Below the pieces are notes generated by a model that saw only the letters and a list, made by a program, of their open reading frames with translations, made no database searches and was not told where the DNA came from. Source: the human T2T-CHM13v2.0 reference genome, Homo sapiens. From it: a stretch of DNA of 64,000 nucleotides. This document shows positions 12,593 through 16,289 of the stretch, piece after piece. The translations under genes and the position numbers were made by a program. Numbering within the stretch: position 1 is the first letter of the stretch; every line of letters starts with the position of its first letter. Location of the stretch: NCBI RefSeq assembly GCF_009914755.1, contig NC_060927.1; one strand, written 5' to 3'.

Positions 12593-14983
12593 TATAGCTA
12601 TTAAATCAAGAATATAAGACAGAATCAAAAAGGTATATAACACAATTAGACATGAAAATAAAATTTAACATGGGATATAGTGGCTGCCTTACACTAACAT
12701 AAATCAAATCCATATTGTTTCAAAGGAAAGATTGAATCTGGTTGCAACAGCAGGGAAATCTTTCTTATTATAATTTAATGACTCCACTATCTCAACTCTG
12801 CAGGAATCTAATGGGTGATATCGTACTAAGTTTAGAGAAGTCAAATAGCCTCTTCAGTCCAGCCATAACTCGAGTTTTCTGGAAGAACGCTGCACCAAGC
12901 AAATGTGGCTTGGCTTCTGAAAATGGGCCTGAAAAGCTAAATACTGTTATTAGATTTTTCTCAGTGTTTTTAATGCTAATAGTAAAACATGCAAATTAAT
13001 CTGATGAAGAAAGCTAAGGTATGCACGATTTCATCAGAGAAGGTTGCACCCATGGCCTCTGGGAATTTTTGTCCTGTATTCAGAGCCCTGAGTGCCTATC
13101 TGGAAATCAGTAAAGCCAACATCTCAGTCATCGACCCAGCTCCACAAGGCAAAGGAGCATGTTTCCTGCATTAACTACACCTTGCTGCAGCAAATTGACT
13201 CAGATGTGGTATTTTAATTGGCGTTAAACAGAATTATTATTTAATTAAAGCAGAGACTAGTTAATTTTCTGACTCATTGTTTGAGCAAAAGATGCTAAAT
13301 TCCAGTCAAAACCAACTTAATTGAATAACATCAAATAACCAATTTGGTGCCTTCAGGAGGTCTATTTTGTTTCTTTTATTTTCTTATCTAAAGGAATACT
13401 TCTATTAGAAATAATTTAGACAGAATATTTAAATTCATTAAATGTCACAGTAGAAAGGGGCATTAGATAAATCTTCCAGATTGTTCATTTTATAGATGGG
13501 AAAACTGAAACTCAGAAACTGAAAAACAATTATCCAAGATCACACACGTAGCATCGGGTCAGTCCTAGGATCACTGGCTCCTGACTCTCATTTTAGTGCT
13601 CATTCCACTATACCTAGAAACATGGGTTATCTGAGAGAGGACATATAGCGTGCCAGCATCAGAAGCAACCTCACAGATTATCCTTTGAAACCTCCCCTGC
13701 CTTAATTGTTGGGGAAACTGAAGACTAGTGAAGACAAAGAACTTGCCAGGGTCACACAGCTGGGCCAGAATGAAAGACCCAGCTTGCATTCTATAATCTG
13801 CCTACCTTAGTCTCTAAAGTATTAGAGAGTAGATGAGTCTGTTGTGTTGAGAAGTTAGGCTGTGTCCCGCACACCATCTCTGTGATTTCACACGTTCTAA
13901 AATAAAGACTTTGGAAAGAAATCTCTCTTTGCTGTGGAGAAAAGACAGTTGAATGATGCATAAGGCTGACCCTTAATCTTCTTCAGGCCCAGCTCTCTGC
14001 CCTGCACAGGCTCCGCTCTTTCAGAAACCAGTATTTCAGTGAAGACTTCGTGGGAGCCATAATCATCCCTCCCTCACTGAATGTCCCCCTGGTCCAGTCT
14101 GCTATCTCGCTGTACAATTCCAAACCTCCTTATGAATTTGCTGCATGTATTTCTCTGTAGTTAGTTTTGAAATTTTCCAAGGAGAGGATCTCAGCTGCTT
14201 TTTAATTTTATTATACCCTCTCAAGTACTGGATATGTGGATGGCACTAAATACATGCTCAGTATAAATTCACTACGAGGACTTTCAAAGGACCTGGAATG
14301 CAACAGATTAGCAAGGACTAGAAATCTAGATGCAATGGCTACTTATTCTACATGGAATAGATGATGAAGCTCTGTGGTCAGAGGGCGCAAGTTTTGAAGC
14401 CCAACTCCCACTTACCCACTTTTGGGTATTCGGAGGCTGAATTCCGTCATCTGAAAATTGTCATTACAATATCTACTTCACTATGCTATCATAACAATCA
14501 AACAAAGCAAATGTGTAAACCACTTGCATAAGGCCTGACAAATAGTAGAAACCCAGGAAATAAATCTGCATTTCCATATTGTCTGAAGCGTAGAGGTAAA
14601 AATACTTCACAACCTCCCCTTTTGTTAGAGGGCAATGGCCCCAACACTCCTGATAATCTTCTAGTTTTTGCAACTTAGCTGAGAATATTGGACAGGCAGG
14701 AAAAAATCATGCTTGATGCTAGTTCTGCCATGCTCTTTGCCTGAAATTTTCTTATTACTGTGCAGTTATCAGAGCTTTTCAACGAGGGGGTGACTCTGGA
14801 AAAATCTATGCTTTTGTCTCAATACTAATTTACAAGGGCGTTTTTTTTTTTTCCTGATAAAACAAAAACAAGGAAAAAGCTAATGGTGACCAGCTGTCTA
14901 AAGCTCCTAGGCATATTTCTATCTATCACACAGAGGAAGGAAGGTCAGTGAGCTCCTGGTAAGGCCAGCATGAAGCCAGCAGT

Positions 14984-15043
14984 CTTGAACCCTGGATCCT
15001 CATGCTAAAAGCCTAATAGCTCTACTGACTGAGCTACTCAGGC
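14984..15043 (-). pseudogene. 3'-truncated tRNA-Lys(TTT)-derived sequence
   Basis: Minus strand reads GCCTGAGTAGCTCAGTCAGTAGAGCTATTAGGCTTTTAGCATGAGGATCCAGGGTTCAAG, aligning to tRNA-Lys(UUU) positions about 1-59. The 3' side of the T-arm and acceptor stem is missing. Confidence 0.85.
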
Positions 15044-15046
15044 TCA

Positions 15047-15375
15047 TTCATGTCCTTTGTAGGGACATGGATGAAGCTGGAAACCATCATTCTGAGCAAA
15101 CTATCGCAAGGACAGAAAACCAAACACCGCATGTTCTCACTCATAGGTGGGAATTAAACAATGAGAACACTTGGACACAGGATGGGGAACATCACACACC
15201 GAGGCCTGTCGTGGGGTGGGGGGAGAGGGGAGGGATAGCATTAGGAGATATACCTAATGTAAATGATGAGTTAATGGGTGCAGCAAACAAACATGGCACA
15301 TGTATACATATGTAACAAACCTGCACGTTGTGCACATGTACCCTAGAACTTAAAGTATAATTAAAAAAAAAAAAA
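15047..15375 (+). mobile_element. 5'-truncated L1PA 3' end with poly(A)
   Basis: Primate L1 3' UTR ending ccctagaacttaaagtataat plus poly(A). TSD AAGCCAGCAGTCT at 14973-14985 and 15376-15388. Confidence 0.95.
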
Positions 15376-16289
15376 AAGCCAGCAGTCTGTTCTTATGTCA
15401 TGAATTCAGCCTGAGTGAAGAAACCAGCCCTACCTGAAATGGTTGTCTTCATACAATGCACCCTTAGTGGTGAGTTATCTGTTGAACATAATCCCCAGCC
15501 ATGCCCTAGGGAATGGAGAGCTGGTGCCAAATTCTCCCTTCAGAAGCACGTGTGTGACTCTGAACTGCATATTAGGGTGAGTTGTGGATAGTTGGGTGTG
15601 TAGAGAAGGAAGGTAGGTGAAATCTGTCAGCAACCATTGCATCAGAAGTTTTATGGGTTTTCCTATACTCAGACTTCCCATATTTGGGATTGCTGAATTG
15701 CTTCAGCTTATTTCAATGATCAGGCTAGATCTGTGGGTCTCAGCCAAAAGCATAGGGGACATCATCACTGCAGTGCCAGGAGAAACAGACTTTAATGAAC
15801 TTCAGGGACAACCCCACGAGGAAGCATGACTCTTCCTCAAAAGGCCTTAGGGTGTTTGCAAAATCCAAAAATAAGGGGGCGGACAATGAGCTGTGGATCA
15901 TTCTAAAGGCAAGCAAGGGCAAAGTTGAAAAAAATGTTAAAATTCCCTTGCAAGAGAGTTTAACACCCCAGACACAGGCTGCGACAATGAGCAAGGAAGA
16001 TGGTTATTCCTGTGGGATAAGGCTATACATTTTAGTGTTCCAGAGCAGCTCTAGAAGGAAGAGTTCCCACAGGTGAGGGAAGACCAGGTGAAACTGTTCC
16101 TGTAAGGACAAGGCAGACCTAGCTGCTCTTTGCCCTCTCTGATCTAGAGTGAAATCTCACCTCCTCTTCCCCAGACTCACACTGAAAGGAAGCGTTAAGA
16201 CTTTCCCAAGGGCAGAAACCAAGAAGGATCCACTTAAACAACAACATAGAACACAAAAATCTTGAGTTTCAAAATAAAGACAGAGCAAT

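What the first reader, a model, noticed from the sequence alone, without database searches (positions are those of the whole stretch)
14973..15388. Chimeric retroposon: inverted tRNA-Lys fragment fused to an L1 3' end within one 13-bp TSD
Seen: the TSD AAGCCAGCAGTCT brackets both an antisense tRNA-Lys(TTT) piece (14984-15043) and a sense L1PA 3' end with poly(A), implying one insertion event. The tRNA copy stops in the T-loop (GGTTCA|AG), and the last two TSD bases (CT) are complementary to tRNA A58-G59. Inference: this is twin-priming geometry in trans. One target strand primed L1 poly(A); the other primed internally on a tRNA and copied it to its 5' end. Known U6-L1 chimeras are co-oriented, whereas this one is inverted. 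The tRNA part looks more diverged (about 9 mismatches plus 1 indel in 60 nt against the sequence I recall) than the L1 part, so the donor could be a variant tRNA or a pseudogene.
Basis: partly seen in the sequence, partly recalled or inferred. Interest (0 to 1): 0.75.

Follow-up and report, generated by a model that had tools for sequence, protein, structure and literature searches.

The report
Published inverted tRNA-Lys / L1 chimeric insertion
A backwards copy of most of a lysine tRNA and the tail end of an L1 jumping gene were pasted into the genome together in one event; the structure is real, but this kind of insertion, and this very site, are already in a published catalogue.

Summary
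An exact 13-bp direct repeat (AAGCCAGCAGTCT, 14973-14985 and 15376-15388) brackets a 58-nt antisense copy of the 5' part of a tRNA-Lys(TTT) (14986-15043), 3 junction bases (TCA), a 5'-truncated L1 3' end (15047-15362) and a poly(A). The reading also holds: one insertion event, with a second reverse transcription primed from the other nick on a bystander tRNA (twin priming in trans). It is not new. Law & Burns 2026 (PMC13174262) describe 21 tRNA/LINE-1 chimeras, mostly antisense, and propose twin priming. Their Table S3 has a chr3 row with exactly this structure (L1PA5 plus antisense tRNA-Lys-AAA 1-59, same-age arrival in the multi-species alignment). Inverted snRNA/L1 chimeras by twin priming were described in 2015 (PMC4476161). 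Added here: the TSD, which the table does not give for this row. The likely donor is a weak 74-nt variant tRNA-Lys(TTT) gene on chr6, which shares 6 derived states with the copy and explains most of its apparent divergence. Target/tRNA microhomology is 1 nt with this donor, not 2. The 3 junction bases match the donor's 5' leader, hinting at a precursor tRNA template. Interest is low.

The parts
14973..14985 (.). Upstream copy of the 13-bp target site duplication AAGCCAGCAGTCT. Its last base (14985, T) could equally be the first copied tRNA base (complement of A58).
14986..15043 (-). 58-nt antisense cDNA copy of a variant tRNA-Lys(TTT), from the T-loop (standard position 57) to position 1. It carries the donor-type extra T after GAGC.
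   Evidence: 53 of 59 identical to L036; not a callable tRNA
15044..15046 (.). 3 junction bases, TCA. They are not L1: 0 of 3 match the GAG seen at this place in 26 of 29 L1 copies (AAG in one; the T before CATG is A in one and misaligned in another). Their reverse complement TGA equals the last 3 bases of the donor gene's 5' leader. TCA also recurs at 15048-15050.
15047..15362 (+). 5'-truncated L1 3' end (end of ORF2 plus 3' UTR), labelled L1PA5 in the published table. 6 of 316 columns differ from the majority of its 29 nearest genomic copies.
15363..15375 (+). Poly(A) tail. The A-run continues to 15377, and its last two A's belong to the TSD.
15376..15388 (.). Downstream copy of the TSD, AAGCCAGCAGTCT.

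Best explanation
This is one L1-mediated insertion, about the age of the L1PA5 subfamily, built from two cDNAs made at two staggered nicks 13 bp apart.

Shown: a single exact TSD encloses an antisense tRNA piece, 3 junction bases, a sense 5'-truncated L1 3' end and a poly(A).

Inferred steps:
1. The bottom strand was nicked at the left edge of the TSD (top-strand notation TG/AAGC). Its 3' end primed reverse transcription of an L1 RNA from the poly(A). That cDNA stopped about 316 nt in.
2. The top strand was nicked 13 bp downstream. Its 3' end (...AGTCT) primed reverse transcription in the T-loop of a bystander tRNA-Lys(UUU) transcript, with 1 nt of pairing (T with A58). Copying ran to, or 3 nt beyond, the tRNA 5' end.
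3. The two cDNA ends were joined and the gaps filled.

The template came from a weak variant tRNA-Lys(TTT) gene of the chr6 tRNA cluster (T2T chr6:28564524-28564597, minus strand), not from the canonical tRNA-Lys3 genes. The product is an inert fragment with no sign of function.
For: The TSD is exact and encloses both parts. The L1 starts at 15047 in 39 of 39 genomic L1 matches, and the 3 bases before it are not L1. The tRNA piece is attached directly to the 3' end of the upstream TSD and is antisense, which is the orientation that top-strand priming produces (geometry).

The copy's limits fall on tRNA landmarks, the T-loop and position 1 or leader -3. This argues for a tRNA transcript as template rather than random DNA.

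Donor: 53 of 59 identical to L036 against at most 50 of 59 to any other of the 36 other loci compared. There are 6 shared derived states, including the 1-nt insertion. A 22-nt signature pattern with 2 N matches exactly at only two places in 3.1 Gb, this locus and L036. L036 is called tRNA-Lys(ttt) by ARAGORN and scores 41.9 bits on Rfam tRNA (gathering score 29; canonical gene 74.1). It has a TTTT run about 35 nt downstream.

Published support: Table S3 of PMC13174262 has a row with this structure, flagged as found by proximity and by contemporaneous arrival in the multi-species alignment. By my reading, 16 of its 21 tRNA/LINE-1 chimeras are antisense. The authors propose twin priming (passages).
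Against: Neither nick site resembles the L1 endonuclease consensus well. In the paper's notation the first-strand site is TG/AAGC, against TT/AAAA (consensus from passages).

Pairing between target and tRNA is only 1 nt with the identified donor. Priming by annealing is therefore weakly supported. A jump onto the end of a T-loop-cleaved fragment fits equally well.

The tRNA piece carries 5 changes of its own in 58 nt, against 6 in 316 for the L1 part (Fisher p = 0.017). That is more than equal-age neutral decay predicts. The L1 figure is biased low, because the 29 comparison copies were those most similar to the window.

I could not check orthologous empty sites myself. The same-age claim rests on the published table. 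No experiment shows the order of events.
Confidence: 0.8

Rival explanations
1. Capture of a free tRNA cDNA (or a T-loop-cleaved tRNA fragment copied end to end) as filler during end joining at the L1 5' junction. In this reading the target's top strand did not prime by annealing.
For: There is only 1 nt of target/tRNA microhomology with the identified donor. The published tRNA pieces mostly end near position 37, which the authors relate to tRNA halves cut before reverse transcription (passages). This copy ends at 58/59, as does one other row of 21 (tRNA-Met 3-58).
Against: Random capture should be neutral in orientation, yet 16 of 21 catalogued cases are antisense (my count). The tRNA cDNA abuts the TSD with no extra bases, as expected if the TSD 3' end was the primer.
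Confidence: 0.12
2. Retrotransposition of a pre-formed fused RNA, transcribed from a donor locus where an antisense tRNA-Lys copy already lay just upstream of an L1 3' end.
For: None found.
Against: The 60-mer matches only itself in the genome. The variant signature occurs only here and at the chr6 gene. The chr6 gene's 5' flank is not L1 sequence. The piece's limits coincide with tRNA landmarks.
Confidence: 0.03
3. Two separate events: an older tailless tRNA retropseudogene, with an L1 landing by chance exactly at its 5' end.
For: Tailless, loop-truncated tRNA retropseudogenes are common in the human genome (PMC5322556, passages).
Against: An L1 inserting next to an older fragment would duplicate target bases around the L1 alone. 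Here the upstream repeat copy lies beyond the tRNA piece. The published table marks both parts as arriving together.
Confidence: 0.03

Closest known systems
tRNA/LINE-1 chimeric insertions (Law & Burns, Cell Genomics 2026, PMC13174262; preprint 10.1101/2025.02.02.635956)
   Same: It matches a listed member: hg38 chr3:189584317-189584644 (+) L1PA5, with tRNA-Lys-AAA 1-59 antisense at chr3:189584254-189584313. The row has the same 60-nt piece, 3-nt gap and 328-nt L1 as the window, at one constant coordinate offset. Like most members it is antisense, and the authors explain the class by twin priming.
   Different: Most members end near tRNA position 37 (12 of 21 rows end at 35-39). This one starts in the T-loop (59), as does one other row (58). 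The table gives no TSD, donor gene or junction analysis for this row. Those are added here.
Inverted snRNA/L1 chimeras by twin priming (Doucet et al. 2015, PMC4476161)
   Same: A 3'-truncated small RNA sits in the opposite orientation at the 5' end of an L1, inside one TSD. The truncation lies in a single-stranded loop, with some complementarity to the target. It is explained by top-strand priming (passages).
   Different: [quoted passage not shown]
Classical twin priming / L1 5' inversion (Ostertag & Kazazian 2001, as cited in the papers read; not read by me)
   Same: Two cDNAs are primed from the two strands of one staggered break and joined, which gives an inverted 5' segment within one TSD.
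   Different: In the classical case both cDNAs copy the same L1 RNA. Here the second template is a different RNA, so the priming is in trans.
U6/L1 chimeras (template switching or RtcB ligation; PMC6789731, search listing and abstract only)
   Same: A small Pol III RNA is fused to the 5' end of a truncated L1 within one TSD.
   Different: U6 is usually full-length and co-oriented with the L1. This piece is inverted and 3'-truncated, so that mechanism does not fit.
Tailless tRNA retropseudogenes (Schmitz et al. 2004, as cited; Noll et al. 2015, PMC5322556)
   Same: A 3'-truncated tRNA copy, processed or unprocessed, with no A-tail. The truncation lies in a loop and priming is internal, on target DNA (passages).
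   Different: Those are stand-alone insertions with 2-18 nt of target complementarity. This one shares its TSD with an L1 and has only 1 nt of complementarity.

Membership tests
tRNA/LINE-1 chimeric insertion (Law & Burns 2026) | A tRNA-derived segment within 50 bp upstream of the 5' end of a LINE-1 | tested here: met
   The tRNA piece ends at 15043 and the L1 starts at 15047.
tRNA/LINE-1 chimeric insertion (Law & Burns 2026) | One TSD of 7-20 bp enclosing both parts | tested here: met
   An exact 13-bp repeat lies at 14973-14985 and 15376-15388.
tRNA/LINE-1 chimeric insertion (Law & Burns 2026) | Both parts arrive in the same interval of the mammalian phylogeny | not testable with these tools
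   No primate genomes are held here. Table S3 flags this row found_by_msa_prediction = 1.
tRNA/LINE-1 chimeric insertion (Law & Burns 2026) | L1 endonuclease motif (TT/AAAA-like) at the first-strand nick | tested here: not met
   The site reads TG/AAGC. The paper also accepts members without the motif (6 of 8 examined had it), so the motif is supportive, not defining.
Twin priming (strict sense) | An inverted 5' segment attached to the upstream TSD, with a sense 3' segment and poly(A), inside one TSD | tested here: met
Twin priming (strict sense) | Both segments derive from the same L1 RNA | tested here: not met
   The inverted segment is tRNA-Lys, not L1. Hence 'in trans'.
Twin priming (strict sense) | Complementarity between the top-strand 3' end and the internal priming site | tested here: inconclusive
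   1 nt with donor L036, 2 nt with the canonical gene. Too short to tell from chance.
U6/L1-type template-switch chimera | The small RNA is co-oriented with the L1 | tested here: not met
   The tRNA piece is on the opposite strand.
Functional tRNA gene | A complete cloverleaf recognised by tRNA finders | tested here: not met
   ARAGORN gives 0 genes. Rfam gives no tRNA match at E up to 10 and nothing at gathering score in the whole window.

The most novel reading that the evidence does not exclude
The template was not a mature tRNA or a cytoplasmic tRNA half. It was a nascent nuclear precursor, still carrying its 5' leader, from a weak variant tRNA-Lys gene. The 3 junction bases equal that gene's leader, and none of the four other tRNA-Lys gene variants aligned has that leader. 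If this holds in general, antisense tRNA/L1 chimeras sample Pol III transcripts present at the integration site. The 3-6-nt gaps seen between tRNA position 1 or 2 and the L1 in 6 of the 16 antisense rows of the published table would then be leaders that name each donor gene. That would argue against the published 'tRNA halves' origin.
Probability: 0.3. Interest if true: 0.4.

Novelty: already known. Interest (0 to 1): 0.15.

Why it matters
As a class, such chimeras show that the L1 machinery can start a second reverse transcription on a bystander RNA at the other side of the break. This is one route by which new composite retroelements can arise. This locus adds nothing categorical: the class, the mechanism and the site itself are published.

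Its one small use is that its donor gene can be identified, because the donor is a rare variant. That allows a look at which form of the tRNA was copied (leader present, start in the T-loop). It also shows that the apparent excess divergence of the tRNA part is mostly inherited from the donor. There is no sign of any effect on TP63. The insertion lies about 12 kb upstream of the first annotated exon and 2.3 kb from the nearest annotated enhancer (hub table).

Tried and rejected
1. ARAGORN and Rfam on the fragment gave no tRNA call. That is expected for a truncated, diverged piece. Identity was established by alignment to real genes instead.

2. A BLAST-type search of the genome with the 60-mer found only itself. 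The searches with a canonical tRNA-Lys gene (37 matches) and with L036 (11 matches) did not return the window locus. So that tool misses matches of 85-90% identity over 60 nt. The donor was found by aligning the piece to the 37 fetched loci other than the window's own.

3. Seven further pattern matches with 2 mismatches (L046-L052) share only about 20-35 nt with the donor and were dropped as chance.

4. I considered whether the TCA junction bases belong to the L1. In 26 of 29 L1 copies the preceding bases are GAG-TT-CATG, so 0 of 3 match. Rejected.

5. I tried to test leader retention on a second published chimera (hg38 chr3:191732580). Two 10-kb stretches at the extrapolated position hold no L1 3' end.

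7. I considered explaining the window-specific changes as reverse-transcriptase errors at modified tRNA bases. The five positions (standard 6, 18, 28, 31, 40) do not stand out, from my recall, as the strongly blocking modified sites. With n = 5 nothing can be concluded.

Full report
**What is in the sequence**

The 13-mer AAGCCAGCAGTCT occurs at 14973-14985 and again at 15376-15388. It is the only direct repeat of 10 nt or more in 14800-15600. It cannot be extended on either side.

Between the two copies lie four parts:
- 14986-15043, 58 nt: its reverse complement is the 5' part of a tRNA-Lys(TTT).
- 15044-15046: three bases, TCA.
- 15047-15362: an L1 3' end in sense orientation.
- An A-run at 15363-15377. 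Its last two A's belong to the repeat.

**The tRNA piece**

ARAGORN and Rfam do not call a tRNA here, and Rfam finds nothing at gathering score anywhere in the window. So I took real tRNA-Lys(ttt) genes from the same genome and aligned the piece to them.
- It aligns end to end: 50 of 59 identical to three gene variants, and 45 of 52 in a local alignment to the commonest gene sequence.
- Against the commonest gene there are 10 mismatches and one inserted base in 60.
- The copy runs from tRNA position 1 to the T-loop (GGTTCA), then meets the repeat.

**The donor**

One locus fits far better than the rest: L036, T2T chr6:28564524-28564597, minus strand, at 53 of 59.
- It is a 74-nt gene that ARAGORN calls tRNA-Lys(ttt).
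- Rfam's tRNA model scores it at 41.9 bits (gathering score 29). A canonical gene scores 74.1.
- A TTTT run lies about 35 nt downstream.

With the canonical gene as outgroup, the window copy and L036 share six derived states: piece positions 4, 7, 39, 40, 47 and the extra T at 26. Five changes are private to the window copy (6, 18, 29, 32, 41) and one is private to L036 (49).

A 22-nt signature pattern with two free positions matches exactly at only two places in the 3.1-Gb genome, this locus and L036. The seven 2-mismatch matches are chance.

Most of the apparent divergence of the tRNA part was inherited from the donor gene.

**Remaining excess divergence**

The L1 part differs from the column majority of its 29 nearest genomic copies at 6 of 316 columns. 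The tRNA part has 5 private changes in 58 nt (Fisher p = 0.017), or 6 of 58 against present-day L036 (p = 0.005). One of the five is a CpG transition. The L1 figure is biased low, because the comparison copies were the most similar ones. I leave this mild excess unexplained. A lost or since-changed donor allele, reverse-transcription errors on a structured template, and chance all remain open.

**The junctions**

*Upstream junction.* Homology to the donor runs through window 14986 and can include 14985, the last T of the repeat (complement of A58). The next base matches the canonical gene but not L036. Target/tRNA microhomology is therefore 1 nt with the identified donor, not 2.

*Inner junction.* All 39 genomic L1 matches begin at window 15047-15049. 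In 26 of 29 aligned L1 copies the bases before TTCATG are GAG, so TCA matches the L1 at 0 of 3. The reverse complement of TCA, TGA, equals the last three bases of L036's 5' leader. The four other tRNA-Lys gene variants aligned have other leaders. A chance match is 1 in 64, so this is a hint that the template still had its leader. There is a caveat: TCA also recurs at 15048-15050, so a local slip cannot be excluded.

*Nick sites.* In the notation of the paper the first-strand site is TG/AAGC, a poor match to TT/AAAA.

**How it most likely arose**

A single repeat enclosing both parts means a single staggered break. The L1 with its poly(A) next to the downstream repeat copy is ordinary target-primed reverse transcription from the bottom-strand nick. 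The tRNA cDNA is joined directly to the 3' end of the upstream repeat copy and is antisense. That is what results if the top-strand 3' end, 13 bp away, primed reverse transcription on the tRNA from the T-loop to its 5' end. The two cDNAs were then joined. This is twin priming with a second template in trans. These steps are inferred from geometry, not shown.

**Rivals**
- A fused donor transcript is disfavoured. The fragment is unique and the donor gene's 5' flank is not L1.
- Two separate insertions are disfavoured, because the repeat lies outside the tRNA piece.
- Capture of a free tRNA cDNA, or copying of a T-loop-cleaved fragment, cannot be excluded from this one locus. Only the antisense bias of the class speaks against it.

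**What is already known**

Law & Burns (Cell Genomics 2026, PMC13174262; I read the outline, passages, the Methods section and Table S3) report 21 tRNA/LINE-1 chimeras in hg38. They describe them as mostly half-length and antisense, and they propose twin priming.

Sheet 'tRNA' of their Table S3 has this row: chr3:189584317-189584644 (+) L1PA5, tRNA-Lys-AAA 1-59 at chr3:189584254-189584313 (-), found by proximity = 1 and by alignment-based timing = 1.
- The row's structure equals the window's: a 60-nt antisense piece, a 3-nt gap and a 328-nt L1, at one constant offset from the T2T coordinates.
- The sequence is unique in the genome, so I take it to be the same locus. I had no liftover tool.
- No TSD is given for this row. 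Only 8 rows were examined for TSDs.

By my count of the 21 rows, 16 are antisense. 12 end at tRNA positions 35-39, and two end at 58-59 (this one and a tRNA-Met).

Doucet et al. 2015 (PMC4476161, passages) had already described inverted, loop-truncated U5 and U1 snRNA/L1 chimeras and explained them by twin priming. Noll et al. 2015 (PMC5322556, passages) describe stand-alone tRNA copies primed internally in loops, from processed or unprocessed tRNAs.

**Verdict**

The finding is already known, down to the locus.

New details here:
- the exact TSD;
- the donor gene;
- the corrected microhomology (1 nt);
- the leader-like junction bases.

I tried to test the leader idea on a second published chimera.

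Noticed in passing
L036:1501-1574 (-) = T2T chr6:28564524-28564597: A 74-nt variant tRNA-Lys(ttt) gene in the chr6 tRNA cluster. It has an extra base after GAGC, an A-C mismatch at anticodon-stem pair 31-39 and a weak acceptor stem. Rfam scores it 41.9 bits, against 74.1 for canonical genes. 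The retrocopy in the window implies it was transcribed when L1PA5 was active.
   Followed up: partly
PMC13174262 Table S3, sheet 'tRNA': In several rows the TSD columns seem shifted by one row. For example, the chr5:86372886 row carries TSD coordinates on chr6:81316914, and the chrX:107695404 row carries coordinates at chrX:65017944. Users of the table should re-pair them. No TSD entry for the chr3 locus appears anywhere in the sheet.
   Followed up: no
PMC13174262 Table S3, sheet 'tRNA': 6 of the 16 antisense rows have a gap of 3-6 nt between the tRNA coordinates (alignment starting at position 1 or 2) and the L1 start. The other 10 abut directly. These gaps could be pre-tRNA leader bases or untemplated additions.
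   Followed up: no
window:14841-14852: A T12 run about 120 bp upstream of the insertion gives spurious inverted-repeat pairs with the L1 poly(A). There is no sign that it belongs to the insertion.
   Followed up: no
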